The notes under the pieces: generated by a model
Databases searched by the model: none
What the model was told of the DNA's origin: nothing
The model's input: the letters and a program-made list of their open reading frames with translations, nothing else
Assembly: GCA_026414805.1 (NCBI GenBank)
Contig: JAOAIH010000001.1
Span: 51,335 to 115,334, forward strand
DNA length: 64,000 nucleotides
DNA from: Spirochaetota bacterium
Lineage (GTDB): Bacteria > Spirochaetota > UBA4802 > UB4802
Direction: 5' to 3'
Translations under genes and position numbers: made by a program
In this document: positions 11,831-35,838 of the stretch, in pieces
Layout of the letters: each line of letters starts with the position of its first letter
Numbering within the stretch: position 1 is the stretch's first letter

Positions 11831-11847
11831 TATGGGCAGTATATATT

Positions 11848-12969: not shown

Positions 12970-13229
12970 TGTTCACACCACCATTTCTTTTATTACTATT
13001 TATATTTTAAACTTATTTTAAATAAGTGTTAGTAATAGTGATAGTATTTTTGTTGATAACTGTAAAAAATCCTGAACTTTTCAGCATTTGGAAAAAATTT
13101 ACTTTGTTAATAATAATCAAAACAATCATTGTAAATTATTTAAAACCCATCTCTGCAACGTATAGATGTTAGATATAATAAAAAAAATTTATAACTATAC
13201 ATACTTTTAAACAATTTACTAACACAATA

Positions 13230-16624: not shown

Positions 16625-17842
16625 TTATGAAAAATCTATATACACAAAAGCGATATCATCATTCCTCTCCTCCAGTGGGGAGAAGTTTTCAAGAGTTTGT
16701 AAAAGATGTTCACAAAATTCTTCCGGGTTTTCATTGTGTTGTTTTAAGAATTTTGCTAATCTATTTTCTCCAAATTCTTCTTTATTGGCATTTTTAATTT
16801 CAGTTATGCCATCTGTATAAAGTATGCACCTGTCACCCTGTTCAAAGTGGATGGTCTTTTGCTCATAGAGTGAATCATCCTGAATACCTAAAAATAACCC
16901 GTTTGTGTCAAGGGCAATAACTTTGTCTGAATTTTTTCTATAGTACAATGGTCGTGTATGTCCAGCATTTGTGAAAGAAATGGTTTTTTTATCAACATCA
17001 ATAAGCATGTAAAATGCAGTAATATATTGCATATCTAACAATAATCCACGCATTTCTTCATTGATTTTTGCCATTAGTTGCTGAGTGTTTGTTATCTCAT
17101 ACGCATAGATATTGAATGTCATCTTTGCCATACTCATGACAAGAGCTGCAGGGATCCCGTGTCCAGTAACATCGGCAATGAGAATACCAACTTTTGAATC
17201 AGAGATTTTATAGCAATCAAAAAGATCTCCACCAATATCAGCAATAGGGAGGTATCGTCCGCTGATAGATGGATATGATATGAATGAAAAATCTTTAGGA
17301 ATGATGAATTGTTGGAGTCGTTTTGCATATTCAAGTTCTTTTTGAATTAATTGATTCTTTTCATAGAGTTCATCATGAGCATTTTTTAATCTCAGTAAAG
17401 ACTGTACCCGTGCTATCAATTCTTTTGGGTTAAGTGGTTTTAACAAAAAATCATCAGCGCCAATCGTTAATCCTTTAATCTTTGAATTAAGATCATCAAG
17501 GCCCGTCATAAGAATGACAGGAATAAATTCGTTCCCTATATATTTTTTGAATTGTTCAAGAAAACCAAAACCATCTAAATTTGGCATCACAATATCAACC
17601 AGTATTAAATCAAAGTGTCTCAATTTTAAGGCATTAAGACCTTCTATGCCATCTGATGCTTCAAAAACATTAATGTTGTAGGTTGATAAAGTATTTTTTA
17701 CAATTGCCCTGTTTAATTTACTATCATCAATAACCAATATATTTTTTGGTGTTTCTGATGAATGAAATGATTGTAATATCATAATCATTAATCCTTCATA
17801 CTGTTTTTGATGCCGCAGAGAAAAGTGAAAATTGTTGTTCAA
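16625..17842 (-). CDS. response regulator with C-terminal PP2C/SpoIIE (RsbU-like) phosphatase domain
   Basis: REC: ILVIDDSKLNRAIV...DLILVDIVMPNLDGF. PP2C-like C-terminus: ADVTGHGIPAAL, LYTDGITE and ERNDDIAFVYIDFS. Confidence 0.75.
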   Translation of the reverse strand: MNNNFHFSLRHQKQYEGLMIMILQSFHSSETPKNILVIDDSKLNRAIVKNTLSTYNINVFEASDGIEGLNALKLRHFDLILVDIVMPNLDGFGFLEQFKKYIGNEFIPVILMTGLDDLNSKIKGLTIGADDFLLKPLNPKELIARVQSLLRLKNAHDELYEKNQLIQKELEYAKRLQQFIIPKDFSFISYPSISGRYLPIADIGGDLFDCYKISDSKVGILIADVTGHGIPAALVMSMAKMTFNIYAYEITNTQQLMAKINEEMRGLLLDMQYITAFYMLIDVDKKTISFTNAGHTRPLYYRKNSDKVIALDTNGLFLGIQDDSLYEQKTIHFEQGDRCILYTDGITEIKNANKEEFGENRLAKFLKQHNENPEEFCEHLLQTLENFSPLEERNDDIAFVYIDFS

Positions 17843-21501: not shown

Positions 21502-23388
21502 ATGATACGATATTTTGACATTATAGTCATAGGTGCAGGACATGCTGGGGCCGAAGCAGCACTGGCATCTGCACGGCGGGGTTTTGCAACACTACTTTTG
21601 ACTGGCAATCTTGATACTATATGCCAGATGAGTTGTAATCCTGCTATAGGTGGGTTGGCAAAAGGGCATCTAGTGAAAGAGATTGATGCATTAGGTGGAC
21701 AAATGGGATTGACAATAGATGAAACGGGTATTCACTATAAGATGCTCAACAAAAGTAAAGGGCCAGCAGTGTGGGCACCACGTGCACAAGCCGATAAAAA
21801 GCAATATCAACTCAGGATGAAGGAAGTTATTGAAAAACAGAAGAATTTAACATTGATACAGGATATTGTGGACGAAATTATTGTTGAAGGTGATACGGTA
21901 AAAGGAGTTCAAACCATACGAGGACAGCAACATGTCGCACAAGCAGTTATAGTGTGTACAGGAACATTTTTAAAGGGACTTATCCATATTGGCAATTATA
22001 ATGAGAGAGCAGGGAGACTGGGTGATTTTTCATCTGAGAAGCTTTCGGATTCATTGCGCGCATTGGGCTTTCCAGTAAGACGGTTAAAAACAGGGACCCC
22101 TCCACGGGTTAATGGTAATTCAATAGATTTTAGTAAATGTGAAGTGCAACATCCTGACCCTGTTCCCACACCATTTTCGTACAGGACACAATCCATTAAT
22201 AGACCACAGGTGCCCTGTTATATTACCTATACAACTGACAAGACTCATACAATTATAATGAATAACCTGCATCTATCCCCATTGTATTCAGGCAAGATTA
22301 AAGGTATAGGGCCACGATATTGTCCATCAATTGAGGATAAGGTTGTCCGTTTTTCTTCACGAAATCGCCACCAACTGTTCCTAGAACCAGAGGGATTACA
22401 CACAAATGAATACTACATAAATGGATTTTCTAGCTCATTACCTGAGGATGTACAATTAGAAATGATTAAAACTATCCCTGGCTTAGAGGAAGTGCAAGTA
22501 ATGCGTCCTGCGTATGCTGTGGAATATGACTATGTGCCACCGGTAGAGTTATATCATACATTGGAAACCAAAAGGGTCAAAGGATTATATCATGCAGGGC
22601 AAATTAATGGGACATCAGGGTATGAGGAAGCAGCTGCACAGGGAATTATTGCTGCAATAAATGCAGGTAATAAGCTATTGGGATTGCCACCTCTGGTGCT
22701 TAAACGTTCTGAAGCATATATCGGAGTGCTCATTGATGATCTGGTTACCAAAGGTGCTGATGAACCTTACAGGATGTTCACATCCCGGGCCGAGTACAGG
22801 CTGTTACTAAGGCAGGATAACGCTGATGAACGGTTAATGAAGTATGGTTATCAGATAGGCCTAATTGATAAGGAACTATATGAAAGAACCGTTGAAAAGT
22901 ATAAAAGAATACAGGAACTTACCGCTAAAATAAATAGCATGACCATTGTAATTAATGAAAAAATGAAGGATATTCTCAGAGATAAGAATATAGAGATAGA
23001 AGAACAACACCAGATCCTAGCAGGAAAACTGTTAAAGCGCCCTGAAATAACCATGCATGATGTCATGTCTTTTATTGTTGAAAGCGATAGTACCCTTATA
23101 ATGAATGAGCAGGAAGCTAAGATTGTTGAGATGAATATCAAGTATGAAGGATATATCAGGAAAGATATGGAACGAGTAAAAAAGTTGGAGCAGATGGAAA
23201 ACAAAAAGATTCCAGAAACTATTGATTACGATAGTATCATTGGGCTTAAAAATGAAGCACGCGAAAAACTGAAAAAAATAAAGCCTCAAACAATAGGGCA
23301 AGCGTTGCGCATTTCAGGAGTTGATCCTTCAGATATATCGATAGTCTTAGTACATATAGAATCGTTAAGCAGAAAAAAAAGTAATTAA
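21502..23388 (+). CDS. mnmG: tRNA uridine-5-carboxymethylaminomethyl modification enzyme MnmG (GidA)
   Basis: 628 aa. FAD-binding [15 protein letters not shown] at the N-terminus, GidA-like throughout. Confidence 0.95.
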
Positions 23389-23424
23389 ATAAACTGAAAT
23401 TAGTTAAATATTTTACAAAAAATG

Positions 23425-23442
23425 ATGTTCCACGTGGAACAT
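23425..23442. promoter_or_regulatory. parS-like 18-bp perfect palindrome (ParB-binding centromere-like site), copy 1, intergenic
   Basis: ATGTTCCACGTGGAACAT. The core TGTTCCACGTGGAACA differs from the Bacillus-type parS consensus TGTTNCACGTGAAACA only at the symmetric A/G positions. Confidence 0.5.
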
Positions 23443-23546
23443 TATGTCGCATTATCATATTCAATTATACACTATACCAACTAAATTATTGAATATAATT
23501 ATTTTATTTATGCTTGAAGATATGGAAATTTTCAAATAATATCGTT

Positions 23547-23555
23547 TGGTATAAT
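23547..23555 (+). promoter_or_regulatory. candidate extended -10 promoter (TGGTATAAT) inside the long gidA-gidB intergenic region
   Basis: Exact TGnTATAAT motif ~270 nt upstream of the rsmG start. No good -35, which an extended -10 does not require. Confidence 0.25.
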
Positions 23556-23823
23556 ATTATCTTCATGAATGGACTGGCTTGATTAGTGGCTATAAATATT
23601 GGCGATTAAAATATATAAGTGATCCTTATAGCTTGATAATGAAAGTATTAAAGTGTGCAATTTAGTAAGGATTTATATACTGCATTCTGAAAGAATGTAA
23701 TAGATGAGTAAATATATTTATAAATTACATTAAAACAACATCTTATTGTTGCAATTTATTTGTGATGTGAATATGATCATTACTTTATTACAAATTAAGA
23801 TATAATTTATTTAATTTAAATAT

Positions 23824-24636
23824 ATGAAAGGTACCGTTATGCTGGCATTATCAGTAGAAATAGAAGAAAAACTAAAAAACTTTGCCTATTTGATATTTGA
23901 ATATAATAAAATAATAAATATTACCGGGTTAAAAGATGTCGATTCAATTTATAATCAGCTTATTGTTGAAAGTATTTTGCCACTTAAAAATATCAATGTT
24001 CCACGTGGAACATCCTTTATTGACATAGGCACAGGAGCGGGAATTCCAGGCATTCCATTGTTATTATATTTTGGCACGAACATCAATGGTGTATTGGTTG
24101 ATTCAAATAATAAAAAGATTAAATTTATTGAGAAAGCAATAGGTGTTCTTGGTCTTGCCCACAGTACTATGGTTATACAGGGCAGAGTAGAGGAAATGGC
24201 ACATGAAAATCAATATAGGGACAAGTTTGATTTTGCAGTAGCCAGGGCTTTTGCGCATCCGTATATGGCACTTGAATATGGATTGCCCTTTGTCAAAATA
24301 GCAGGTTGGTTGTATATATATTACGCTTCAAAGTTATATTCTACAAATTATAAAGAAAATGCAATAATAAGCAAAAACAATAGCAGAATGACGAATAATA
24401 TTAATACATTGCACGATCATAAAGTAGCTAATTTATCACAAAGAAATGTAAAAGCACTTGTAGAGTATTTGGAAAAGCATTCCCATGCTCTATGTGGACA
24501 TGTGGCAACTTTTGAAGAAGCTATGAATAAGGGCATTGATGAAGGTTTTCTTTTTATCAAGGATGGGCCAACACCGTTACAATATCCAAGAAAGTATGCT
24601 ATAGTCAAAAGGGAGGTTGATAAGATAAGAGGGTAA
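23824..24636 (+). CDS. rsmG: 16S rRNA (guanine527-N7)-methyltransferase RsmG (GidB), with a ~50-aa internal insertion
   Basis: SAM-binding motif IDIGTGAGIPGIPL, a C-terminal YPRKYAIVK tail typical of RsmG, and the conserved position after gidA. 270 aa against the usual ~210-240. Confidence 0.8.
   Translation: MKGTVMLALSVEIEEKLKNFAYLIFEYNKIINITGLKDVDSIYNQLIVESILPLKNINVPRGTSFIDIGTGAGIPGIPLLLYFGTNINGVLVDSNNKKIKFIEKAIGVLGLAHSTMVIQGRVEEMAHENQYRDKFDFAVARAFAHPYMALEYGLPFVKIAGWLYIYYASKLYSTNYKENAIISKNNSRMTNNINTLHDHKVANLSQRNVKALVEYLEKHSHALCGHVATFEEAMNKGIDEGFLFIKDGPTPLQYPRKYAIVKREVDKIRG
23997..24014. promoter_or_regulatory. parS-like 18-bp perfect palindrome, copy 2, inside rsmG coding sequence
   Basis: Identical ATGTTCCACGTGGAACAT, 572 bp from copy 1. 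It encodes NVPRGTSF in rsmG. Confidence 0.5.
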
Positions 24637-24644
24637 ATGAATGT

Positions 24645-25205
24645 ATGAAGAAGATAAAACGTCTATCAATGTATATTATTTGGTATGTACTTGCTCTGTA
24701 TTTGAGTGCGGTGTATGCAGAAAACCAGAGTAGCCTGCATAGTATAGTACTAAAAGATGAAACATTGATTGTACCTGGCACAGGTGCTTCAGGCATAGTA
24801 ATCGGTATGCCTGAACGTGAGGTCGTATTGATAAAGGGCAAGCCTTTTGAAAAAACAAAAAGTGTTGTCCATGAATTTTTTAAAGATGTATTAAAAATAA
24901 ATTCTCCATCACAGCTTCACTTTAATTATCTATATATATACAAGAGCCCATCAGCATTTATTGGAATATATAAAGAAAAAGTATCATTTATTGTAGTATG
25001 GAATTCCACTGGCATATTGATTGAAGGAATACCACTATCTAAGGGTTTACAGGCAATAGTATATCATTATGGGAATGAGGGCATGTTGAGTATTTCTGGG
25101 GCAGATGGGAAGATATGCATATATTCTTCAAAAGGAATAGCCTTTATTGATGATAAGAATGATAATAGCATTGATGGCATTATAATTTTTAAAGGTAATA
25201 TGTAA
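24645..25205 (+). CDS. secreted hypothetical protein
   Basis: Signal peptide (MKKIKRLSMYIIWYVLALYLSAVYA); no other motif. Confidence 0.45.
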   Translation: MKKIKRLSMYIIWYVLALYLSAVYAENQSSLHSIVLKDETLIVPGTGASGIVIGMPEREVVLIKGKPFEKTKSVVHEFFKDVLKINSPSQLHFNYLYIYKSPSAFIGIYKEKVSFIVVWNSTGILIEGIPLSKGLQAIVYHYGNEGMLSISGADGKICIYSSKGIAFIDDKNDNSIDGIIIFKGNM

Positions 25206-25214
25206 TTACTTTAT

Positions 25215-26987
25215 TTATGCAATTGAATTGAAATGTTCCATTGTATCGTTAATATGATGAGCAACAATATCACTGATATGGTATTCATGATAAATAATAT
25301 CATCAATTGAGTCCATTAATAGTTTCCTTTTATGCTCATTTGTTTCTTCCCTTAGTGTTAGGGATAAATTTTTTAACATGTTTTTATTAGATGAATTAAT
25401 TATTTTTATAGGTAATTTTTCAAGATTCCCGCGTAACACTTTTACAGTAAAAAATTGAGTATCATAGATATATTGAAGAAGGCGTGAGTTTAAGATTGCA
25501 GTAAGAATATCCGGATCCAAATCTGGGCTAAGAGGGATAAATCCATTAACATTATTCAAAGTATAAAATCCATGAGGGTCTACAGCAAACGTAAGATGCT
25601 TGCCAATAAATTTGTATACTATTTTATTGGGAGTTAGGTAACAACTCTTTTCGGCAACCTGTTGTAATGTAGCCACATTGTACTTGAAATAATGACCACT
25701 AAAAGTAATTCGAAATTTTTCGACATCTTTGCCTACAATTATTGGGTCTGGATGCAAACTATCTCTGGTATTGCTTATGTGGTGTTCATTGTTTCCAGTA
25801 ACAATTCCAAGAAAAAATTTTACTCTGTCTTTTAGTGTAATGTATGAAAGGGACTGAATATGTTCTAATAAGGCAACAGCTTTTCGTGAATAATTAATTG
25901 AAAATATATTTTGATATGATTCACTATACATATGTTGTGGTATTAGGTGAGCGGTATTTTTAGCAAGATTTATTAAAGATTTCCCGTGTTTTATATGTAC
26001 AATATTTTTCTTACGAACATCTTTGCACGGCTCTTTTTGAATTGTTAATGATATCGCCGGTGCATATACTCCTTTAAAACAATCTCCCCATTGTACTATT
26101 TCCTTAATCACCGAAAGCGATAGTACTAGTTCTCTTGATTTCTGATGCGCTTTGATATTGAGATATGCTTCTGGAATAAGAAATGATAATATCCCATGAT
26201 TTCGTAATAAAGACAATGACTTTTCAATAAATAGTGTAAAACTGTTAATACCACTTAAAGCTGAAATATAATGCTGTTTGAAATATTGTTTTTGCTCTTT
26301 AGTAAAATATGCACCCCATGGTGGATTACCAATAATAACATCAAATAGCATAGAATTGTATTGTCTATTAAAAAGATCGCCGGATGTAAGGGTGTCTTTA
26401 TGAAATATGTTAGTTTTTCTTCCTGATATCTTTTGTATATTCCACTGAGCAATCATACAGGCTATAGGGTCTATATCATAACCATACAGATTGGTATGAC
26501 AAATAATATTGGTAGATTCATTTTCAGGTATGCCAAGGTGTTTGTATAATGTTAATAAATATTGAAAGATATATATTAAAAACTGGCCTGAACCACATGC
26601 AGGATCTAAAATCCTCATAGTATATGGATTATCATAGTGCTGAAGTGCATTGTGTACCATATACTGAACAATTGCAGGTGGTGTAAAATACTGTCCTCTC
26701 TTTTTTTTGTCATCTGTATCTTTTAGCTGTTGATAAATATAGCCAGCAATATCGCCATATTGTATTATGTCCCATTTTTGGATTACCTTTAAAAGATCAT
26801 TGCATGCTAATTTTCCTTGTTCAGATAATGGTAATGGAATTTCTCTATTAAAAAGTAAATATTCAAGTATTGTTTGAATGAAATTGGATGACTCTTGGTT
26901 TGCAATAATATCTTTTTTTAGTTGCCCTATGCAGTAATCGATATAATGAATGTTATGAGTAATATAAGAATCAAATTTGTTTTTCAT
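25215..26987 (-). CDS. N6-adenine DNA methyltransferase (gamma-class, Eco57I/TaqI-like) with C-terminal target-recognition region; no adjacent restriction endonuclease
   Basis: Motif I LDPACGSGQFLI, motif IV NPPW (IIGNPPWGAYF), preceded by QYFTPPAIV. 590 aa. Confidence 0.75.
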   Translation of the reverse strand: MKNKFDSYITHNIHYIDYCIGQLKKDIIANQESSNFIQTILEYLLFNREIPLPLSEQGKLACNDLLKVIQKWDIIQYGDIAGYIYQQLKDTDDKKKRGQYFTPPAIVQYMVHNALQHYDNPYTMRILDPACGSGQFLIYIFQYLLTLYKHLGIPENESTNIICHTNLYGYDIDPIACMIAQWNIQKISGRKTNIFHKDTLTSGDLFNRQYNSMLFDVIIGNPPWGAYFTKEQKQYFKQHYISALSGINSFTLFIEKSLSLLRNHGILSFLIPEAYLNIKAHQKSRELVLSLSVIKEIVQWGDCFKGVYAPAISLTIQKEPCKDVRKKNIVHIKHGKSLINLAKNTAHLIPQHMYSESYQNIFSINYSRKAVALLEHIQSLSYITLKDRVKFFLGIVTGNNEHHISNTRDSLHPDPIIVGKDVEKFRITFSGHYFKYNVATLQQVAEKSCYLTPNKIVYKFIGKHLTFAVDPHGFYTLNNVNGFIPLSPDLDPDILTAILNSRLLQYIYDTQFFTVKVLRGNLEKLPIKIINSSNKNMLKNLSLTLREETNEHKRKLLMDSIDDIIYHEYHISDIVAHHINDTMEHFNSIA

Positions 26988-26992
26988 GGTTA

Positions 26993-27045
26993 CTATCGGT
27001 TATCAAGAATGTAAATACGATGTGTCCATATTTACATATCGATAG
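26993..27045. promoter_or_regulatory. nested inverted-repeat operator-like element in the divergent methyltransferase/hypA promoter region
   Basis: CTATCG(26993-98)...ATGTAAATA(27009-17)-11 nt-TATTTACAT(27029-37)...CGATAG(27040-45): an outer 6-bp arm and an inner 9-bp arm. Confidence 0.3.
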
Positions 27046-27080
27046 TTTCCAGAAAAACGATTAGCATTTGTGAGGAAACA

Positions 27081-27431
27081 ATGCATGAATTATCAATTAT
27101 GTCTAATGTTCTTGATATCGTAATACAGCATGCATCACGAAATGGTGCAACGAAGGTAACAAAAATTCATCTTCTGGTAGGGGAACTATCTGATTATATT
27201 CCAGAGTGGATGCAAACATATTTTGATTTTGTCAGTAAAGATACTATTGCAGAAAAAGCAGAACTTGTTGTTGAAACGGTGAAGGCATCGCTTGCATGTG
27301 ATGATTGTGGGAATACATTCAATTTCAATAAAAATGATTGGCAATTCAGTTGCCCACAATGTTCTTCACCAAATGTGACCATTATTTCAGGGAGGGAACT
27401 TACAGTAAAAAGCATAGAAATAGAGGGATAA
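27081..27431 (+). CDS. hypA: hydrogenase nickel-incorporation protein HypA
   Basis: N-terminal MHE Ni-binding motif. Zn finger CDDCGN...CPQCSS. 116 aa, with the typical HypA layout. Confidence 0.8.
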   Translation: MHELSIMSNVLDIVIQHASRNGATKVTKIHLLVGELSDYIPEWMQTYFDFVSKDTIAEKAELVVETVKASLACDDCGNTFNFNKNDWQFSCPQCSSPNVTIISGRELTVKSIEIEG

Positions 27432-27432
27432 T

Positions 27433-27921
27433 ATGATTACTATAGCAATAGTTGTTGTAAGTGATAGGTCGTACAATAAAGAGCGTGAGGATCTTTCAGG
27501 GAAGGCTATTGAGAAGTGGGCACATAGCAGAGGGTATGATGTTGTAGAATATATCATTGTGCCAGATGAGCGCGAGATGATCGCACGCACCTTGCGAGAC
27601 CTGTGTGCAAAAAATATTAATTGTATTCTCACTACAGGAGGAACAGGATTTGCTCATCGAGACGTTACACCTGAGGCAACTTCAGATGTTATTGAACGAT
27701 ATGCTCCAGGCTTTACTGAAGCAATGCGACAGGAATCACTTAAAATCACAAAACATGCAATGTTGTCACGGGCAATTGCAGGGATTAGAGGCTCATCAAT
27801 TATTATTAATTTACCGGGTAGTCCAAAAGCTGTTGTAGAAAATCTTGAAGTTATCCAGGATGCGCTGCCTCATGCTGTGAAACTTTTGCAGGGGCAGGTT
27901 AAAGATTGCGCTCATGAATAA
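27433..27921 (+). CDS. mogA: molybdopterin adenylyltransferase MogA/MoaB family
   Basis: IAIVVVSDRS...ILTTGGTGFAHRDVTPEAT matches the MogA/MoaB GGTG motif region; 162 aa. Confidence 0.8.
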   Translation: MITIAIVVVSDRSYNKEREDLSGKAIEKWAHSRGYDVVEYIIVPDEREMIARTLRDLCAKNINCILTTGGTGFAHRDVTPEATSDVIERYAPGFTEAMRQESLKITKHAMLSRAIAGIRGSSIIINLPGSPKAVVENLEVIQDALPHAVKLLQGQVKDCAHE

Positions 27922-28090
27922 AATTTGATTGCATTCACAATTAGGTCATACCGATAGTATAAACAGAGTAGTAAATTTCAAGTCATAAAAATTGTAAATA
28001 TCTCATAAATTTTTTTAAAACAAGTAGTAGTACTGAAATAAAGATTAAATGAAAGTATTTGTTATTAAATGATGAAATAACGAAAAAACA

Positions 28091-29536
28091 ATGAATACAA
28101 AACAAAAGGATATTTTAGCTATTTTTTGTTTGTTTTTAATTTTGCCTGTTATTGTGACTGCAAAGCCAATTATTACGATTGATAGCATCGATGTAACTTC
28201 ATTTCCAGCGATTAATATAAAAGGTATTATCAACAAACCAGAAAGCACTGATATTGGTGCAGTAACAAAAGAACATTTTACAGTTCTAGAGGATGGCACA
28301 AAAGTTAAGAATTTTGAATTAAAAACTTCTATAGCAGATAGTTATATTGCTGTTTGTGTAGATTCAAGTAAAAGTATATCCAAGAAAAATTTTTTAAAAC
28401 TTAAAAAAATAGCATTGAACGTAATCAGTAAAAGCCCTGAACACTATAAGTTTATTCTGTATAAATTTAATGATGAGGTTGTAAAATTAGGTTCTTTTTT
28501 AGAAAATAGATACTATTATCATGAAACTATTGAAACAATACAGCAGCATGGTAAGCGCACAAAATTGTTCAACTGCTTGTTTACAGCTACAGAGGAACTA
28601 GCGCGTTATGAGGGGAAAAGATCCATTATACTGCTGACCGATGGGAGGGATGAAGGCAGTTTTATGTTACCAGATGACATTATCAGCAATGCCCGTGAAC
28701 ATTCTATCCCTATATATACAATTGTACCAGAGCGCTGTTCAAAGGCTGCGGTTGTTAGCCGGTTAAGCAAAATTACAAAAGGGAAGCTTCTTGTTGCTGA
28801 TGCAGGGATAGAACATACTGTACTTAATTTGCTTCAGGGAGGAAAGTCATCCGTTATCCCATTTGAGATTATTTTCACATCCAAAAAACATGATAGTGCA
28901 ATACATTCCATTGAAGTACAATTCAAATATAAAACTATTCAGGATAATGATACTGTACACGTAAAGTACGCAATAGCACGTAATACCTATTCACTTACTG
29001 ATGAGCTTCCCTTTGTGGTACTTGCTGGGATTGTAGTGCTATTGATCATGGCGCTTGTTATAGTTATATTGATATTTATAAATAAATGGAGAGAGATAGT
29101 TGAGCTCATCACCATGCATAGGATACCAAAACCAATTCAGCGTTATTATTCCGTACTGTATGAAAAAGATGAAATGACAAAAAAAGAAGCAGATACATTA
29201 CTTTTGGCAACATCTCCTGAATACAGTTATACAAATGCTTGGCTTGTTGAAAAAAGTGGCCCTGAAACAGGGAAAAAATTTCCTCTAATATGGGATGAAG
29301 TAACAATTGGGCGCGATAAGGAGAATACTATAGTAATTAATGATGATGCAGTATCCCTGAAACATGCAAAAATAAAAAAAATTGGAAATACATATTATCT
29401 TTTTGACTGTGCAAGCGATAATGGTACCTTTTTGAATAACAAGAAGTTATTGCGTCCCAAACCTCTCTCAGACTGGGATGAAATACAGATAGGAAGAACA
29501 ACGATATTGTTCCGTGGAACAAAGATAAAACATTAA
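28091..29536 (+). CDS. signal-peptide vWA domain - transmembrane helix - cytoplasmic FHA domain protein
   Basis: vWA-like region (VCVDSSKSIS, ILLTDGRDEGS). A single TM (LPFVVLAGIVVLLIMALVIVILIF). C-terminal FHA-like region (VTIGRDKENTIVINDDAVSLKHAKI...YYLFDCASDNGTFLNNKKL). Confidence 0.7.
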   Translation: MNTKQKDILAIFCLFLILPVIVTAKPIITIDSIDVTSFPAINIKGIINKPESTDIGAVTKEHFTVLEDGTKVKNFELKTSIADSYIAVCVDSSKSISKKNFLKLKKIALNVISKSPEHYKFILYKFNDEVVKLGSFLENRYYYHETIETIQQHGKRTKLFNCLFTATEELARYEGKRSIILLTDGRDEGSFMLPDDIISNAREHSIPIYTIVPERCSKAAVVSRLSKITKGKLLVADAGIEHTVLNLLQGGKSSVIPFEIIFTSKKHDSAIHSIEVQFKYKTIQDNDTVHVKYAIARNTYSLTDELPFVVLAGIVVLLIMALVIVILIFINKWREIVELITMHRIPKPIQRYYSVLYEKDEMTKKEADTLLLATSPEYSYTNAWLVEKSGPETGKKFPLIWDEVTIGRDKENTIVINDDAVSLKHAKIKKIGNTYYLFDCASDNGTFLNNKKLLRPKPLSDWDEIQIGRTTILFRGTKIKH

Positions 29537-29540
29537 GTAT

Positions 29541-31046
29541 ATGTCCCTAAAAGTACTTCTGGTATCACCTCCGGTATTTGATTTTTATTATAGCTTTCAC
29601 CGTTCTGAACCCCTTGGGCTTTTGTATATTAGGGAAGCTTTGTTGAGGTATGATTGGCTTACGGTAGATATGTTTGATGCACGGTGTAACAGCACCACAA
29701 AAATGATACCTACCCCACACATATTTGATTATCTGAAACATATCTATGTTAAGGATACTTCATGGTTTAGTCTTCTTTATGGCTTTAAACGATATGGTTA
29801 TTCATTTGAAACAATATCAAAATTTGTTAAGGAACATGCGTATGATGTAGTATGCATTTCTTCTCTTTTCTCGGCATATCACCATGATGTTGAGTTACTG
29901 GTTAAAAAAATTAAAGAAGAAACCGGGGCGATAGTTATTGTGGGAGGATGGGCTGTATGGGCAGAAAAAACGGTAATTGAAAATGGCAGTGCTGATTTTT
30001 ATATAAGTGGAGATGGAGATGTGATACTGCCTGAGATACTGCGTGAGATAGATAGCAATAATACATCTAGGTTGCCTAAACTGATTACTACTAAGAATTC
30101 AGAATATAACGAATTCTTTGTAAATAGCTTCCCCTCTCGTAGGCACTGGTATACCTACTATGGTGCACGAATAGCAAATATCATCTGTAGCAAAGGGTGT
30201 GTGTATCGTTGTGATTTTTGTTCAATACATTGTCGGTATCGTTACTATCAGCGGAATTTTGAATCAATAGAAAAAGAATTAGAATATCTGTATGCACACG
30301 GAGTGAAAATAGTCAATTTTGAGGATGACAATTTTTTATTCCACAAAGGATTTGCATTACAGTTGCTATCGCTTTTGAAATATTACCATAAAAAAGGAAT
30401 GCATTTTTTATGTATGAATGGCGTAACCGCTTTCAATCTTCATTCAGTTTTGGATGATGCTCTTAATGCTGGATTTTTAGAATTTAACCTTTCCCTGGTT
30501 TCTTCGCAAAATACAGTAGTTGCTCAACATCACAGGCCTGATGTAAAAGAAATAATCAAAACTATTGCAAAACATTCTGCGGGGAAAGTAAAAGTGGTTG
30601 TGTATCTCATAGCGGGGCTACCGGGTTCTACTGTTGAAACCTGTGTTGAGGATATCCTTTTTTTAGCAAAGCTACCTGTTTTAATAGGATTTTCGCCTTT
30701 ATATATGCTTCCCGGGCTTGAATTATTTGATGCTATTGGTTTACCCAAAGACCGAAGATTATGCAGAGGCAGTGCCCTGTATTATTTTGGAGATAATTTT
30801 AGTCGTGAGGATATTGCGGCATTGTGGAAACTATGCCGTTTTATAAATAGGGTGAAGAATCCAGCAACAATTGATGCAGGTGAGATGAAAGAGCATAGTG
30901 ATTTTTATAAAAAATCCTGTAGAGAAAAGGTATGGTATTTTCGAGATAGCCAAGGTATGTGGCATGAAGGCTTTCAATTTAATGTAACCTTACCCCAAAG
31001 TTTTAAGGTATATGATATACAGGGTAATGAAATGCTTATTTTATAA
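29541..31046 (+). CDS. B12-binding-domain radical SAM protein
   Basis: N-terminal B12-binding-like fold (VLLVSPPV...PLGLLYIREAL). Radical SAM cluster motif CVYRCDFC (CxxxCxxC). Its start is 4 nt after the vWA-FHA stop. Confidence 0.75.
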   Translation: MSLKVLLVSPPVFDFYYSFHRSEPLGLLYIREALLRYDWLTVDMFDARCNSTTKMIPTPHIFDYLKHIYVKDTSWFSLLYGFKRYGYSFETISKFVKEHAYDVVCISSLFSAYHHDVELLVKKIKEETGAIVIVGGWAVWAEKTVIENGSADFYISGDGDVILPEILREIDSNNTSRLPKLITTKNSEYNEFFVNSFPSRRHWYTYYGARIANIICSKGCVYRCDFCSIHCRYRYYQRNFESIEKELEYLYAHGVKIVNFEDDNFLFHKGFALQLLSLLKYYHKKGMHFLCMNGVTAFNLHSVLDDALNAGFLEFNLSLVSSQNTVVAQHHRPDVKEIIKTIAKHSAGKVKVVVYLIAGLPGSTVETCVEDILFLAKLPVLIGFSPLYMLPGLELFDAIGLPKDRRLCRGSALYYFGDNFSREDIAALWKLCRFINRVKNPATIDAGEMKEHSDFYKKSCREKVWYFRDSQGMWHEGFQFNVTLPQSFKVYDIQGNEMLIL

Positions 31047-31050
31047 AATT

Positions 31051-31734
31051 TTACTTTTTATACATTATAAAAAGATAATTAAATCCTCTTAAGAAGAAAT
31101 TACCTTCTTGGGCAGCTTTGTGGTACTTGCCCATCTGCAATGTTTTGTTATGGCGCACTACTGCAATAATATCAATGGCAGAAAAATATTTAAGCAGTAG
31201 TAAAAACAGATGGAAACCAATGGGAACAAACCCGTCTTTTTTATTAAAGTAATCGCACACATACAATCCCATATACCGCTTTGGTTTTAATATTCTATGA
31301 ATCTCCTTAATTACTTCCTCCATGGCTATGAAATAATCTTGTTCTGTGGCCTTTAATTTGCCTATACATAATGCTTCATTGGAGTAGGTGATGTTGTCGC
31401 CGTAGGGAGGGTCAATAAAGACAAAGTCTGCTTTGTTATTTTCAAGGGGCAATTTCCGTGCATCTGCTTTTATTATATCTTTTCGGTAGGGATGAATATC
31501 ATAGCCCAGACATTTTCTGCCAATATCTTTGCAGACGTCAATGGTGGTGCCGCTGCCACACATAGGATCGACTACAAGATCGCCTTTATTGGTATAGCGC
31601 ATAAGTAAATTCCAGATAACATATGATGGTGTAGCGCCAGGGTAGTTCTGATCCCCCTGCTGTGTATTACCATAATGCTGTGAAGGGTAATTCCATAGCG
31701 TTGTGGTTTGAATAGATAAAGGTGGCTTGAGCAT
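31051..31734 (-). CDS. small DPPY-motif amino-methyltransferase (N6/N4 DNA MTase-like; motif I precedes motif IV)
   Basis: YPGATPSYVIWNLL...GDLVVDPMCGSGTT resembles the motif-I half of N6_N4 methylases. FIDPPYG (motif IV) lies 40 aa downstream. 227 aa. Confidence 0.55.
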   Translation of the reverse strand: MLKPPLSIQTTTLWNYPSQHYGNTQQGDQNYPGATPSYVIWNLLMRYTNKGDLVVDPMCGSGTTIDVCKDIGRKCLGYDIHPYRKDIIKADARKLPLENNKADFVFIDPPYGDNITYSNEALCIGKLKATEQDYFIAMEEVIKEIHRILKPKRYMGLYVCDYFNKKDGFVPIGFHLFLLLLKYFSAIDIIAVVRHNKTLQMGKYHKAAQEGNFFLRGFNYLFIMYKK

Positions 31735-31864
31735 ATTTTTACATCCTAATAAAAAAAAGTTTATTTTAATATATCAAAAATTTTTCTCAATTTCAGATAT
31801 ATCATAAAATGAGAAGAAAATAAATAATATTTATGTTATAGCACTTAAAAAATAGGTATAAATT

Positions 31865-32428
31865 ATGGAATACTTTGGAGGAGATATGGGTAACAGAAGT
31901 TCAGATTGTATTGCACAATGTTATGTTCTATACGGAAGTTATGTTCGAAGTATCATTAAAAGGTTTTACACAGATAAAGACGATATTGAGGATATTTTTC
32001 ATGATGTTTTTCTTAAATTGCTTAACGTTGGGTTTTCCGCAGATCCACATTCATATAAAACCAAAAACTATATTGGGAAGGCAACACGACATTGTTGCAT
32101 TTCACATATGCGTAAAAAGATTGCACGCCAAAAGAATTGCAAAGAAGTCTATACAAGTACTCTATGTGATAGTGATATAGTTGTTGATATATGCAACAAA
32201 AATATTGAAGACACAATAATTGAGGGGATGGTTGTCAGTACTCTTTACGATGTTATACATGAGCTTGAATATCATGAGCAAAATCTGGTGTTTGACAAAT
32301 ATTTTCACAATAAAAAATATGTACAGCTTGCTGCAGAGCAGGGAGTTCCATATTATAGCGTTAAAAGGAAGATTAAAGAAATTAATATTAAAATAAAACA
32401 AAAGTTAATGAATAAAGGTATTGTATAA
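31865..32428 (+). CDS. sigma-70 family (ECF-like) RNA polymerase sigma factor
   Basis: Region-2-like EDIFHDVFLKLL, and a region-4 HTH-like KKYVQLAAEQGVPYYSVKRKIKEI. 187 aa. Confidence 0.5.
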   Translation: MEYFGGDMGNRSSDCIAQCYVLYGSYVRSIIKRFYTDKDDIEDIFHDVFLKLLNVGFSADPHSYKTKNYIGKATRHCCISHMRKKIARQKNCKEVYTSTLCDSDIVVDICNKNIEDTIIEGMVVSTLYDVIHELEYHEQNLVFDKYFHNKKYVQLAAEQGVPYYSVKRKIKEINIKIKQKLMNKGIV

Positions 32429-32471
32429 TAATAAAGGCGATAGCTATTGTAGTATTTAGCTTGAAATTTAT

Positions 32472-32530
32472 CGATATCTATTGTACAAGTAGCTTGTTTT
32501 TACTAGCAAACAATACAACAATAGATATCG
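32472..32530 (+). promoter_or_regulatory. 13-bp perfect inverted repeat (CGATATCTATTGT / ACAATAGATATCG) with nested TTGTTT/AAACAA stem, abutting the ribosome-binding site of the downstream 7TM-PP2C gene
   Basis: Arms at 32472-32484 and 32518-32530. The right arm ends at the G of GGAAGG (the ribosome-binding site), 8 nt before the TTG start at 32543. No U-run follows. Confidence 0.35.
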
Positions 32531-32542
32531 GAAGGTTTAACT

Positions 32543-34699
32543 TTGAAATATATTGTTACCCTGATATGTAGTTTCACAATTGTGTATGCGTTTTATGTGG
32601 TACTGGTTAATGTACTGAAACGGTTTTCCTATGCAGTAAACAGGTTATTTTCATTTATAGCTTTGCTTACTGCAGGGATGATCTTATGTTTACTTATACC
32701 TATTTATGTACCAGGTATTGATGTTACAGTAGTAACACGCTTATATTTTGCACTCATTATAATTATTAATCAATCCTTCTTCCATTATACACAGATATTC
32801 CCACGCTGGGAAAAAAGGAGCCCTTTACTCGTTATTATACTATCAGCAATTCCTGGCATTATTACTTTTCTAGTTACTATAGCAACCAATGGAATTATTC
32901 TTTCTGCTTCTTTGGTTGATGTTCATCTACAGTTTACCTATGGTCAATTTGTACTACTGTACCTGATTGTGTTTGTTCTTTATATATTGGGCACTTTCTT
33001 AACCCTATTCTACAAAGTGCGCCGGTTGGAAAATACCTCATTCAGATATCAGCTTTTTTATGTGTTTATGGGAAATCATGTAGGTGCGTTAATTATACTT
33101 GTGTCGTTTATTATTATGCCCTATGTTTTTCACCGCTATGAATATCACAGTTTGGGGATTTCTTCAGCAGCGTTGCTATTGTTATATATCAATAATTATG
33201 CTATATCTGATGAGCGGTATCTCAACTTTAAAGAGTTTTATCTTAAAATATTTTTTTATGCAATTGTATTGTTGTTCACTGTTTTTCCAACCTACTTGAT
33301 TCTTATCAATAGTTACCGTTATTTTTTGGCAGGGGGACAGATACCTGCAGTTGCTGTTGCATTTTTAAATTTTATATATTTAATATTTTTTACCAGGGTT
33401 GTACAACCGTACTTAGAAAAATTTATTAAACAAGAATATGCCCATTTAGAAAAACGTTTTAACGATTTTATTCAGGCATTATCGCAAACTGAAGAATTTG
33501 AAGGCGATCCAACCTACTGGGACAGGTTCTTTACAACTACTATGGAATCGCTTGAATATTTATTTAATGTTGTTTTTGCAAGCTTTTTAATGTACAATGA
33601 ATCAGAAAAAGCATATATATTAAGCCACACTGTAGGTCAACAGCCTCAATTGAAGAGGATATCCTTGGATGATTCATTAGTTCAATTATGCCAGACTGTT
33701 AAAACAACCATACATAAATCATTGTTCTATACTGATGCAATGATAAGACCATTTGATGATGTACTTACATTGATAAAAAATAATTCAATTGAAGTTATTC
33801 TTCCATGTTTTGACCAGTCAGGCAAGCTTATTGGGATTCTTTTTTTAGGGCCTCATAGAAAGGGGCGGCCATATACGTTTAATGAAATTGAGTTTATGGA
33901 ATTGTACCGCGTGAAATTTAATAATGCACTCATTAATTCACTTCAGATTGAAGAGGTAAAGGTAAAACAGATAGGTGAACATGATAATTTAGTAGTAAGT
34001 GCCATAAAAAATTCAATTATACCAAGACAGTTGCCCTCTATTGAACATATACGAATGAGTTCGTTGTTTATGAACAATTCAAATTTAGGGGGTGAATTCT
34101 TTAGTGCAAAAGTTTTACATAAGAATGCGCTTGCTTTTTTAATTTCGGATTGCTCATACAGTGGAGTAGATGCTGCGGTACTGGCATTGGAGCTTTATGC
34201 TGCTTTTGAATCATTATCCTCAACCTATGATACACCAGAAAAAATAATGCAGTTATTAAACTGGGTAGTATGTACATCAAAATTTACTGAACGATATGCG
34301 ACAACTTTTTGTTTTACCTTTAACTCTGAGACGTTATCATTAAAGTATATCAATGCTGCATTTAATCCTCTGATAATGTATGAAATTAATAATGACAGTT
34401 TTGTAGAATTAGATACAAAAGGTATACCAATAGGAATTGAAAAAGAATTTATTTATGAGTCAAAAGAATATATTGTTAAAGGACCATGTGTTGGATGTAT
34501 TTACTCTAATGGAATCACTGGTGCTGTGAATCAGATGGGGCAGCCATATGCTGTTGGAAGAATTAAAGATTTGATAAGGCTCCATAATAACGAAAGCCCT
34601 GCTCTTTTAATCCGTCGTATCACTGCAGATATAGAGACATACACAAGTAATACAGCAGTTAAAGAAGATATAAGTATTATTATTTTTAGAATTGATTGA
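32543..34699 (+). CDS. multi-pass membrane sensor with C-terminal PP2C/SpoIIE-type phosphatase domain
   Basis: ~9 N-terminal TM helices. C-terminus has LISDCSYSGVDAAVLALE (Asp-rich metal site like DvsGHGxxAA) and LIMYEINNDSFVELDTKGIPIGI. 718 aa. Confidence 0.6.
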   Translation: MKYIVTLICSFTIVYAFYVVLVNVLKRFSYAVNRLFSFIALLTAGMILCLLIPIYVPGIDVTVVTRLYFALIIIINQSFFHYTQIFPRWEKRSPLLVIILSAIPGIITFLVTIATNGIILSASLVDVHLQFTYGQFVLLYLIVFVLYILGTFLTLFYKVRRLENTSFRYQLFYVFMGNHVGALIILVSFIIMPYVFHRYEYHSLGISSAALLLLYINNYAISDERYLNFKEFYLKIFFYAIVLLFTVFPTYLILINSYRYFLAGGQIPAVAVAFLNFIYLIFFTRVVQPYLEKFIKQEYAHLEKRFNDFIQALSQTEEFEGDPTYWDRFFTTTMESLEYLFNVVFASFLMYNESEKAYILSHTVGQQPQLKRISLDDSLVQLCQTVKTTIHKSLFYTDAMIRPFDDVLTLIKNNSIEVILPCFDQSGKLIGILFLGPHRKGRPYTFNEIEFMELYRVKFNNALINSLQIEEVKVKQIGEHDNLVVSAIKNSIIPRQLPSIEHIRMSSLFMNNSNLGGEFFSAKVLHKNALAFLISDCSYSGVDAAVLALELYAAFESLSSTYDTPEKIMQLLNWVVCTSKFTERYATTFCFTFNSETLSLKYINAAFNPLIMYEINNDSFVELDTKGIPIGIEKEFIYESKEYIVKGPCVGCIYSNGITGAVNQMGQPYAVGRIKDLIRLHNNESPALLIRRITADIETYTSNTAVKEDISIIIFRID

Positions 34700-35838
34700 G
34701 GAAAAATTCCCTTTTTAATATATTTATGATGATGAATATTGATTTTGAAGGATTGGCAAAAAATATTATAGCACTATTGCAGGGACAGGAAAATGTTGCA
34801 ATTATAATCAAAGGCTCACCTGATCCGGATGCTATAGCTTCTTCATATTTTTTCTGGAAAATTTGTACCATAATGCATGTCAATGCTTCAATATTTTGTT
34901 TCATGCCTGCATCTTTACCATCTAATAGAGCTTTAATTTCAATGTTTAACATACCGGTGAAAATTGTTGCAAGTATAAATGAAATAAAATTGAAACGATA
35001 TTCGGGATATATAGTATGTGATTATCAAACAGCAAGGCTTGAAGATGAATTTTCTTCCACTCCCTGCATTATTCATCTAGATCATCACACTCCTGCAGAA
35101 CATGATGTTCCTGCAAGTATTAGAATTTTAACAGATGAAGTATCGTCAACCAGTACGCTTTGTGTGCTGTTAATGCAGCATATATCCTTTTTATCGATGG
35201 ACGATATTTCGGAGCTTTCTACTATATTGTATGTTGGCATAAAAACAGATTCAGATGGTTTTAGCCACATGAATGAATATGATACAGTGGCTATTGAATA
35301 TATAAAACCATATTGTGATATAGCATCAATTCAAAAAATTGAAAATACACCATTAACTCCTTATACAGTTGCCCTGCTACAAAAAGCAATGAATAATGCT
35401 GTCAATTATAAAGATTGGCTTATTGCAGGTGTTGGATTTGTTGAAGAAAAGTATCGAGATACTATCGCCATAATAGCTGATTATCTTTTGCAAAACAACG
35501 ATGTTGAGCTTGTTGTAGTATATGGAGCAGTCTACCATAATAACCACACTAAATTGGACATAGATGCATCATTTAGAACAAAAAATGAAGACTTTGATTT
35601 AAATGAGCTTATTAAAAATATTACTCCTGATGGGGGTGGACGTAAATATAAGGGAGCATTTCAGGTTCATATTGATTATTTTGTCCATTGTCCTGATCAG
35701 GATAAATTGTGGGAAGTGATAGAAATTACAACAAATGCTATTTTGCAGAATCAAAGAGACCATAGTTTTGCAATAGCTTTGCAGAGTAAATTTAAAAAAC
35801 TAAAAAATATATTAAAGCAGCTATTTGGCTTTAAATAA
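34696..35838 (+). CDS. DHH/DHHA1 phosphoesterase (NrnA-like nanoRNase / pAp phosphatase)
   Basis: DHH motifs GSPDPDAIAS and HLDHH, with a DHHA1-like GGGRKYKGAF. Its start overlaps the preceding stop. Confidence 0.7.
   Translation: MRKNSLFNIFMMMNIDFEGLAKNIIALLQGQENVAIIIKGSPDPDAIASSYFFWKICTIMHVNASIFCFMPASLPSNRALISMFNIPVKIVASINEIKLKRYSGYIVCDYQTARLEDEFSSTPCIIHLDHHTPAEHDVPASIRILTDEVSSTSTLCVLLMQHISFLSMDDISELSTILYVGIKTDSDGFSHMNEYDTVAIEYIKPYCDIASIQKIENTPLTPYTVALLQKAMNNAVNYKDWLIAGVGFVEEKYRDTIAIIADYLLQNNDVELVVVYGAVYHNNHTKLDIDASFRTKNEDFDLNELIKNITPDGGGRKYKGAFQVHIDYFVHCPDQDKLWEVIEITTNAILQNQRDHSFAIALQSKFKKLKNILKQLFGFK

What the first reader, a model, noticed from the sequence alone, without database searches (positions are those of the whole stretch)
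28091..31046. Extracytoplasmic vWA / cytoplasmic FHA transmembrane protein translationally coupled to a B12-binding radical SAM enzyme
The 481-aa protein has a signal peptide, a von Willebrand A-like domain outside, one TM helix, and an FHA phosphothreonine-binding domain inside. The next gene starts 4 nt after its stop and encodes a cobalamin-type radical SAM protein (CVYRCDFC). vWA-FHA proteins normally partner with Ser/Thr kinases or PP2C phosphatases, so pairing with a class-B radical SAM enzyme is atypical. A membrane PP2C gene lies 1.5 kb downstream.
Basis: partly seen in the sequence, partly recalled or inferred. Interest (0 to 1): 0.5.

Follow-up and report, generated by a model that had tools for sequence, protein, structure and literature searches.

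The report
Lineage-specific vWA-FHA / radical SAM gene adjacency
Both genes are real and correctly described, but they sit together only in one small group of related spirochaete genomes where the whole origin-proximal region keeps its gene order, so the pairing looks like an accident of gene order and not a new signalling-enzyme partnership.

Summary
ORF 28091-29536 encodes a 481-aa protein with an N-terminal hydrophobic segment, a vWA domain with an intact MIDAS motif, one TM helix and a canonical FHA domain. Four nucleotides after its stop, ORF 29541-31046 encodes a 501-aa enzyme with a B12-binding-like domain and a radical SAM domain (CX3CX2C). A membrane SpoIIE/PP2C gene starts 1.5 kb downstream.

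The interpretation of an atypical functional partnership is not supported. The pair is adjacent only in one Spirochaetota clade (vWA-FHA at least 58% identical, rSAM at least 60%). There the whole +-10 kb block has the same gene order, and it lies about 14 kb from dnaA/oriC.

- Of 35 orthologous rSAM loci at 37-46% identity, none has a vWA-FHA neighbour.
- Of 46 vWA-FHA loci at 41% identity or less, none has the rSAM.
- The rSAM orthologue abuts a same-strand upstream gene in 34 of 44 loci. At least 10 unrelated families fill that position (Pth, RpiB, ComFB, RNase HII and others), so tight spacing is generic.
- The vWA-FHA gene's conserved context is gidA-gidB-MTase-moaB.

The best reading is two unrelated, uncharacterised but conserved genes that became co-transcribed in one lineage. 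Interest is low.

The parts
28091..29536 (+). 481-aa bitopic membrane protein. In order: N-terminal signal/anchor segment (about aa 4-33), periplasmic beta-sandwich plus vWA domain with intact MIDAS (aa ~28-292), TM helix (aa ~303-335), linker, and cytoplasmic FHA domain (aa ~380-478).
   Evidence: Pfam VWA and FHA score above their gathering cutoffs. Hydropathy peaks and MIDAS/FHA residue conservation come from 119 homologues. In the AlphaFold model the ectodomain resembles ArnB and ITIH1, and the FHA domain superposes on GarA/OdhI at rmsd 0.9 A.
29537..29540 (+). 4-nt spacer between the vWA-FHA stop codon and the rSAM ATG. No obvious Shine-Dalgarno sequence is present. The spacer is 4-5 nt in all 7 clade genomes.
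29541..31046 (+). 501-aa enzyme with an N-terminal Rossmann (B12-binding-like) domain, a radical SAM barrel (C220-x3-C224-x2-C227) and a conserved C-terminal domain of about 100 aa. The family is uncharacterised.
   Evidence: Pfam. No NCBIfam model reaches its cutoff. PDB profile hits are TsrM, CysS, OxsB and TokK. Model pLDDT is 90 with Foldseek hits to TsrM, AprD4, MgmA, CysS, TokK and MiaB. There are 18 invariant-rich orthologues from several phyla.
27922..28090 (+). 169-nt AT-rich intergenic region upstream of the vWA-FHA gene. It is the likely promoter region of the two-gene transcription unit.
   Evidence: Sequence. The promoter scan was not informative, with 21 sites found against 25 expected. 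No Rfam riboswitch was found.
21502..27921 (.). Conserved upstream context of the vWA-FHA gene: gidA, gidB, a 186-aa hypothetical, an N6-adenine MTase with TaqI_C domain (minus strand), hypA and moaB/mog.
   Evidence: Pfam. The same order is seen in L082, L084 and L002. These clusters are present in 15-20 of 43 outgroup loci.
31051..35838 (.). Clade-specific downstream context: a convergent 227-aa N6_N4 MTase, an ECF sigma factor, a membrane SpoIIE/PP2C phosphatase and a DHH/DHHA1 protein.
   Evidence: The block is conserved only in the 7 clade genomes.

Best explanation
Two independent, conserved genes of unknown specific function were brought together once, in the ancestor of one Spirochaetota clade. 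They have stayed adjacent because the origin-proximal block they sit in hardly rearranges.

Gene 1 is a bitopic membrane adaptor or sensor. Its periplasmic vWA domain, through the MIDAS metal site, binds an extracytoplasmic ligand. Its cytoplasmic FHA domain binds a phosphothreonine on a partner that is encoded elsewhere.

Gene 2 is a stand-alone, housekeeping-type enzyme of class-B radical SAM architecture. It is most probably a methyltransferase acting on an unactivated carbon of a cellular substrate.

They are very likely co-transcribed, and the rSAM may be translated by termination-reinitiation. This reflects genome compaction and not a shared pathway.

Shown: the domains, topology, spacing, phyletic pattern and synteny. 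Inferred: co-transcription, ligand and pThr binding, methyltransferase chemistry, and the absence of a functional link.
For: 1. Adjacency is restricted to one clade. The vWA-FHA gene lies directly upstream of the rSAM in L003-L008 and in 11 metagenome contigs (rSAM 60-75% identical, vWA-FHA 58-80%). There are 0 of 35 rSAM orthologue loci (37-46% identity; Spirochaetota, Fibrobacterota, Chitinivibrionales, Sumerlaeota, UBP6) and 0 of 46 vWA-FHA loci (41% identity or less) with the partner within the flanks.

2. In the clade all of about 12 neighbouring genes are collinear, so adjacency carries no extra information.

3. The nearest outgroup, L082 (41% identity), has the same MTase-hypA-moaB upstream genes. 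Its downstream gene is a different ORF that the rSAM profile does not hit; I read it as GDPD-like from its sequence, without a profile search.

4. The block is about 14 kb from dnaA/oriC. Its upstream part, gidA-gidB-MTase-moaB, is conserved across Spirochaetota.

5. The rSAM orthologue abuts or overlaps a same-strand upstream gene in 34 of 44 loci. At least 10 unrelated families fill that position: Pth 12, vWA-FHA 7, RpiB 4, ComFB 3, HI0933-like 2, RNase HII 1, and others.

6. Downstream partners of the vWA-FHA gene vary: RR-GAF-HD-GYP plus rhomboid in 10-13 loci, and purD in 11.
Against: The 4-5 nt spacing is kept in all clade members despite 20-40% protein divergence. The pair appears to form a discrete two-gene unit, bounded by a 169-nt upstream gap and a convergent downstream gene. 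Co-expression is therefore real and could have been co-opted.

One unrelated lineage (L001/L012) has a different FHA protein 119 nt downstream of the rSAM orthologue. By my rough estimate, which assumes about 10 FHA genes per genome of roughly 3,500 genes and was not measured here, 1 in 35 loci is about what chance gives.

No expression or interaction data exist.
Confidence: 0.8

Rival explanations
1. The pair is a genuine functional module in this clade. The membrane vWA-FHA protein would sense a periplasmic ligand and, through its FHA domain, recruit or regulate the co-translated B12-radical SAM enzyme or its phosphorylated substrate. That would couple an envelope signal to a radical methylation.
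For: The 4-5 nt spacing is conserved and the pair looks like a two-gene unit in 7 genomes and 11 metagenome contigs. An FHA protein also follows the rSAM orthologue in L001/L012. Canonical pThr-binding residues are retained.
Against: Linkage is absent in all 81 outgroup loci. The whole block is collinear in the clade. The rSAM is equally tightly coupled to at least 9 other unrelated upstream genes elsewhere. There is no Hanks kinase in the window or the clade flanks to create a pThr ligand.
Confidence: 0.1
2. The vWA-FHA protein belongs to a Ser/Thr-phosphorylation module together with the downstream ECF sigma and membrane SpoIIE/PP2C phosphatase. On this view the rSAM and the MTase are passengers inserted into that module.
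For: A SpoIIE/PP2C with a large membrane domain lies 1.5 kb downstream and is conserved in all clade genomes. vWA, STK, FHA and PP2C operons exist in other bacteria, for example Deinococcus DRA0331-0334 (bioRxiv 10.64898/2026.01.23.701218, abstract seen).
Against: PP2C linkage is again only found inside the collinear clade. No outgroup vWA-FHA locus has this SpoIIE orthologue, and only a weak hit appears in L148. The genes are separated by an opposite-strand MTase and belong to a different transcription unit. From my general knowledge, SpoIIE/RsbU-type phosphatases next to sigma factors usually act on anti-sigma antagonists (phospho-Ser), not on FHA ligands.
Confidence: 0.07
3. The rSAM enzyme is a RiPP or natural-product tailoring methyltransferase, and the vWA-FHA protein is part of an associated export or immunity function.
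For: Class-B rSAM enzymes often tailor natural products. The weak NCBIfam hits are to P-methyltransferases, RiPP C-methyltransferases and similar families.
Against: Every NCBIfam hit is far below its cutoff. There is no unassigned space for a precursor peptide and there are no biosynthetic neighbours. Orthologues are spread across phyla next to housekeeping genes such as pth, L25, rpiB and RNase HII. There are no defence or biosynthesis family hits beyond a generic 59-bit PDC-M51A match.
Confidence: 0.03

Closest known systems
ArnA (FHA) / ArnB (vWA) pair of Sulfolobus acidocaldarius (PDB 8s05, 5a8i, 5a8j)
   Same: It combines a vWA plus beta-sandwich module with an FHA module. The ectodomain model's best Foldseek hit is ArnB (E 9e-13), and the FHA domain also matches ArnA (sequence hits).
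   Different: In the PDB entries ArnA and ArnB are separate chains that form a complex, and to my knowledge both are cytoplasmic. Here the two domains are fused in one chain and separated by a membrane, so they cannot contact each other. Sequence identity is about 14%.
FhaB/FipA (Rv0019c) type membrane-anchored FHA proteins of actinobacteria; GarA/OdhI FHA domains
   Same: The TM helix, linker and C-terminal FHA arrangement is shared. NCBIfam FhaB_Rv0019c aligns to residues 317-472 (E 7e-22). The FHA domain superposes on GarA/OdhI at rmsd 0.9 A with 33% identity.
   Different: The score of 78 bits is below the 125-bit cutoff. FhaB has no extracytoplasmic vWA domain. From my general knowledge it sits in a kinase/phosphatase/division operon; no kinase is nearby here.
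vWA - Ser/Thr kinase - FHA - PP2C operons (e.g. Deinococcus radiodurans DRA0331-0334)
   Same: The same domain vocabulary (vWA, FHA, PP2C) occurs within a few kb.
   Different: There is no kinase. The PP2C is a SpoIIE-type membrane protein in another transcription unit behind an ECF sigma factor. That linkage is not conserved outside one clade.
Class B (cobalamin-dependent) radical SAM methyltransferases: TsrM, CysS, TokK, MgmA; and the B12-domain-bearing AprD4
   Same: It has an N-terminal Rossmann/B12-like domain plus a CX3CX2C radical SAM barrel. Foldseek E values run from 2e-15 to 2e-11 with TM about 0.55-0.63. PDB profile hits agree.
   Different: Identity is only 13-18%. No curated family cutoff is reached. 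It has a unique conserved C-terminal domain of about 100 aa. Cobalamin use is unproven, and to my knowledge AprD4 carries the same domain without using B12.

Membership tests
FHA domain (PF00498) | Profile match above the gathering score | tested here: met
   65.5 bits against a cutoff of 20.7, residues 404-468. The model superposes on GarA/OdhI at rmsd 0.9 A.
FHA domain (PF00498) | Canonical pThr-binding residues (GR, SxxH, NG-T) | tested here: met
   G407, R408, S422, H425, N444, G445 and T446 are present. In the family G, S, H, G and T are 99-100% conserved, R408 is 68% and N444 is 66%.
FHA domain (PF00498) | Binds phosphothreonine peptides | not testable with these tools
   This needs biochemistry.
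von Willebrand factor A domain (PF00092) | Profile match above the gathering score, and a Rossmann-like vWA fold | tested here: met
   42.8 bits against 23.8. VWA_2 scores 34.9 against 27. Foldseek hits are integrin I domains, vWF A3 and ArnB.
von Willebrand factor A domain (PF00092) | Intact MIDAS motif DxSxS...T...D | tested here: met
   D91-S-S93-K-S95, T157 and D184 are 96-100% conserved in 119 homologues.
Radical SAM superfamily (PF04055) | CX3CX2C cluster motif within a profile match above the gathering score | tested here: met
   57.6 bits against 29.5. C220, C224 and C227 are invariant in 18 orthologues.
Class B (cobalamin-dependent) radical SAM enzymes | N-terminal B12-binding Rossmann domain preceding the rSAM barrel | tested here: met
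   PF02310 scores 33.3 bits against 32.1, which is marginal. The model aligns over both domains with TsrM, CysS, TokK, OxsB and MgmA.
Class B (cobalamin-dependent) radical SAM enzymes | Actually binds and uses cobalamin | not testable with these tools
   The only soft hint is a corrinoid adenosyltransferase gene next to the orthologue in L039/L040. To my knowledge AprD4 shows the domain can be B12-free.
Named class-B rSAM families (Sden_1168 P-MT, ladderane-lipid rSAM TIGR04072, PhpK, HpnR, BchE, TsrM-type, MgmA-type) | Score at or above the curated NCBIfam cutoff | tested here: not met
   The best is 77.5 bits against a cutoff of 575. TIGR04072 scores 66 against 360. All others are lower.
vWA/FHA/STK/PP2C phospho-signalling operon | Hanks-type Ser/Thr kinase encoded in the same neighbourhood | tested here: not met
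A regex scan for the kinase motif also found none.
vWA/FHA/STK/PP2C phospho-signalling operon | PP2C phosphatase co-operonic and co-conserved with the FHA gene | tested here: not met
   The SpoIIE gene is 1.5 kb away, behind an opposite-strand gene and an ECF sigma gene. Its orthologue is seen only in the collinear clade.
Conserved functional gene pair (vWA-FHA + rSAM) | Adjacency recurs in lineages where the surrounding gene order has diverged | tested here: not met
   0 of 35 rSAM-anchored and 0 of 46 vWA-FHA-anchored outgroup loci show it. All 17 positive loci share the full block.

The most novel reading that the evidence does not exclude
In this one Spirochaetota clade the co-transcribed pair has been co-opted into a new module. 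A periplasm-sensing vWA/FHA membrane adaptor would dock or gate a cobalamin-type radical SAM methyltransferase at the membrane, for instance to modify an envelope lipid or protein in response to an extracytoplasmic cue. FHA-controlled radical SAM chemistry has no precedent that I know of.
Probability: 0.07. Interest if true: 0.55.

Novelty: new member of a known kind. Interest (0 to 1): 0.15.

Why it matters
It matters little as a pair. The result mainly shows that a striking domain juxtaposition with near-zero spacing can be a by-product of frozen origin-proximal synteny.

Two modest points remain:

1. A vWA(out)-TM-FHA(in) protein family is a conserved feature of the gidAB-proximal region across Spirochaetota. 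It has no linked kinase and no known function.
2. An uncharacterised enzyme family with class-B rSAM architecture is conserved across Spirochaetota, Fibrobacterota, Sumerlaeota and UBP6 in housekeeping contexts. It could be worth characterising on its own.

Tried and rejected
- **Conserved neighbourhood in both directions.** I scanned genome contigs with the rSAM alignment and metagenome contigs with the vWA-FHA alignment, plus five contig look-ups. No linkage appeared outside one clade.
- **A common partner of the rSAM orthologues.** I clustered the flanking ORFs and ran Pfam on them. There is none, only lineage-specific housekeeping neighbours.
- **A kinase or PP2C partner.** A motif regex and phmmer with PknB and SpoIIE seeds found no kinase. 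The PP2C is clade-only.
- **Defence-system reading**, prompted by the two flanking MTases. PADLOC gave nothing for vWA-FHA and only a generic 59-bit rSAM hit. Both MTases are positionally conserved and so are not part of a mobile island.
- **RiPP or natural-product reading.** There is no space for a precursor and there are no biosynthetic neighbours.
- **B12 riboswitch or other RNA element upstream.** Rfam found only one tRNA in the window.
- **Promoter and terminator scan.** It was uninformative, with counts at or below shuffled expectation for promoters.
- **Literature search** for the vWA + FHA + radical SAM combination. It gave no relevant report.
Full report
**What is there**

The window comes from a low-GC (about 34%) Spirochaetota MAG. 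Both proteins are 100% identical to NCBI entries named 'MAG: Spirochaetes bacterium' on a 137-kb contig.

ORF 28091-29536 (+) encodes 481 aa and ORF 29541-31046 (+) encodes 501 aa.

*Protein 1.*
- Pfam finds VWA (aa 86-229) and FHA (aa 404-468), both above their gathering scores.
- Hydropathy shows two hydrophobic segments, at aa ~4-33 and ~300-340. Lys/Arg-rich sequence follows the second one.
- The vWA and FHA domains therefore lie on opposite sides of the membrane. The charge distribution puts vWA outside and FHA inside.
- The MIDAS residues (D91, S93, S95, T157, D184) and the FHA pThr-binding residues (G407, R408, S422, H425, N444, G445, T446) are all present. Most are 96-100% conserved in 119 homologues.
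- The AlphaFold model (mean pLDDT 80) shows a beta-sandwich plus vWA ectodomain. Its best PDB matches are ArnB and inter-alpha-inhibitor heavy chain. The FHA domain superposes on GarA/OdhI at 0.9 A.

*Protein 2.*
- Pfam finds Radical_SAM (aa 214-374) and a marginal B12-binding hit (33.3 bits against a cutoff of 32.1).
- The cluster motif is C220-x3-C224-x2-C227.
- No NCBIfam family reaches its cutoff; the best is 77.5 bits against 575.
- The model (pLDDT 90, pTM 0.89) aligns over both domains with TsrM, AprD4, MgmA, CysS, TokK, OxsB and MiaB. The PDB profile search agrees.
- The architecture is therefore class B. The family is uncharacterised, and cobalamin use itself cannot be tested here.

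*PP2C.* The membrane SpoIIE/PP2C gene (32543-34699) starts 1497 nt downstream.

**Is the pairing meaningful?**

I anchored on each gene in turn.

*rSAM as anchor.*
- A scan of one genome per GTDB species with an 18-sequence rSAM alignment returned 79 loci.
- I built HMMs from the homologues and searched all six-frame ORFs of those loci.
- A vWA-FHA gene lies directly upstream of the rSAM only in L003-L008. These are the six loci with 60-74% rSAM identity.
- None of 35 orthologous loci at 37-46% identity with at least 1.5 kb of upstream sequence has one. Those loci come from Spirochaetota, Fibrobacterota, Chitinivibrionales, Sumerlaeota and UBP6 rumen MAGs.

*vWA-FHA as anchor.*
- Five contig look-ups and a metagenome scan gave the mirror image.
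- All loci at 58% identity or more with enough sequence carry the rSAM immediately downstream (11 contigs, plus a frameshifted one).
- None of 46 loci at 41% identity or less does (38 distinct at 95% identity).
- The nearest outgroup, L082 (41% identity), has the identical MTase-hypA-moaB upstream context. Its downstream gene is not hit by the rSAM profile, and I read it as glycerophosphodiester-phosphodiesterase-like from its sequence.

The adjacency therefore arose once.

**Why it persists**

In the seven clade genomes every gene within +-10 kb is collinear. The order is MTase, hypA, (moaB), vWA-FHA, rSAM, N6_N4 MTase, ECF sigma, SpoIIE, DHH and a 1879-aa protein. Conservation of the pair therefore says nothing beyond conservation of the block.

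The window also contains gyrA, gyrB, recF, dnaN and dnaA on the minus strand at 5.8-14.6 kb. The GC skew changes sign at about 14 kb, and DnaA-box-like sites cluster at 14.6-15.0 kb. The finding thus lies about 14 kb from the origin.

The upstream part of the block is Macro, pyrF, gidA, gidB, a hypothetical, the N6 MTase and moaB. It is shared with distant Spirochaetota.

Downstream of the vWA-FHA gene the neighbours vary. RR-GAF-HD-GYP plus rhomboid occurs in 10-13 loci, and purD in 11.

**Tight spacing is generic for this rSAM gene**

In 34 of 44 loci the orthologue starts within 25 nt of, or overlaps, a same-strand upstream gene. That gene belongs to at least 10 unrelated families:
- Pth: 12 loci
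- vWA-FHA: 7 loci
- RpiB: 4 loci
- ComFB: 3 loci
- HI0933-like flavoprotein: 2 loci
- RNase HII, DUF2238 and four others: 1 locus each

The 4-nt spacer therefore does not single out the vWA-FHA gene as a partner. The junction has no clear Shine-Dalgarno sequence. Termination-reinitiation is plausible but unproven.

**Kinase and phosphatase context**

No Hanks-type kinase is detectable in the 64-kb window or in the clade loci. Only one distant vWA-FHA locus (L149, 27% identity) has one (a regex scan also found none). The SpoIIE/PP2C orthologue is found only in the collinear clade. It sits behind an opposite-strand gene and an ECF sigma gene. For this family, then, the statement that vWA-FHA proteins normally partner with kinases or PP2C does not hold.

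**One possible echo**

In L001/L012, a 2.95-Mb MAG chromosome, an unrelated 376-aa protein with an N-terminal FHA domain lies 119 nt downstream of the rSAM orthologue. My rough estimate is that one such case in 35 loci is about what chance gives. That estimate assumes about 10 FHA genes per genome and roughly 18 genes per +-10 kb flank, and it was not measured.

**Other readings rejected**

- Defence island: PADLOC gives nothing for vWA-FHA and only a generic rSAM hit, and both MTases are positionally conserved.
- RiPP or natural-product tailoring: there is no precursor space, and the orthologues have housekeeping neighbours.
- Riboswitch control: Rfam finds only a tRNA in the window.
- The literature searches returned no report of a vWA/FHA/rSAM combination.

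**Verdict**

The most likely situation (about 0.8) is two independent, conserved genes of unknown specific role that are co-transcribed in one lineage by an accident of gene order near the origin. One is a periplasmic-vWA / cytoplasmic-FHA membrane adaptor. The other is a housekeeping enzyme of class-B radical SAM architecture, probably a methyltransferase.

A clade-specific co-option into a real module cannot be excluded (about 0.07-0.1) and would need expression and interaction data.

Both proteins are new members of known superfamilies. Interest is low.

Noticed in passing
window 5769-15138: The window contains the chromosomal replication origin region. gyrA, gyrB, recF, dnaN and dnaA lie on the minus strand. 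The GC skew changes sign at about 14 kb. Four DnaA-box-like sites, one of them perfect, lie at 14591-15037 in and next to the 538-nt gap upstream of dnaA.
   Followed up: partly
window 25215-26987 (-): A 590-aa N6-adenine DNA methyltransferase with a TaqI_C specificity domain sits at the same position (between gidB plus a hypothetical and hypA/moaB) in distant Spirochaetota. That includes 16 of 43 outgroup loci, among them L082 and L084. No restriction gene is evident next to it. It looks like a conserved orphan, possibly regulatory, MTase near the origin and not a mobile R-M system.
   Followed up: partly
window 31051-31734 (-): A 227-aa N6_N4-type DNA methyltransferase is convergent with the rSAM gene, with only 4 nt between the two stop codons. 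It is conserved in all 7 clade genomes.
   Followed up: no
window 35856-41495 (-): A 1879-aa ORF with an N-terminal signal-like segment has no Pfam match at E <= 0.01. It is conserved in all clade genomes. It is a large uncharacterised, probably envelope, protein.
   Followed up: no
window 16625-19976 (-): A response-regulator-SpoIIE/PP2C fusion (16625-17842) and a REC-GGDEF-EAL protein (17796-19976) lie next to the origin. A Pfam-less 486-aa ORF at 15139-16599 lies beside them.
   Followed up: no
L024, L026, L028-L029, L031-L034, L036, L042-L043, L049 (rSAM at ~10001-11480 in most): In UBP6/rumen MAGs the rSAM orthologue is always the gene directly after peptidyl-tRNA hydrolase, and ribosomal protein L25 precedes that in 9 of the 12 loci. 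In 6 loci a PrmC-like methyltransferase is convergent downstream. This translation-related context might hint at the enzyme's substrate.
   Followed up: partly
L039 11661-12188 and L040 11654-12181: In two Leptospirales MAGs the rSAM orthologue is followed by a corrinoid adenosyltransferase (CobA/BtuR) gene. This is soft support for cobalamin dependence.
   Followed up: no
L001 11655-12782 (= L012 11652-12779): A 376-aa protein with an N-terminal FHA domain lies 119 nt downstream of the rSAM orthologue in an unrelated MAG chromosome (OY763407.1). It is the only other FHA-rSAM proximity found.
   Followed up: partly
L047 4106-5781: The rSAM orthologue in this MAG is broken into several short ORFs in different frames. 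This is either a pseudogene or an assembly or frameshift error.
   Followed up: no
L002, L083, L084, L085 and others, downstream of the vWA-FHA gene: Outside the clade, the vWA-FHA gene is often followed by a REC-GAF-HD-GYP protein (10 loci) and a rhomboid protease (13 loci). This recurrent neighbourhood might be a better lead to the vWA-FHA protein's function than the rSAM. Neither gene is present in the window.
   Followed up: partly
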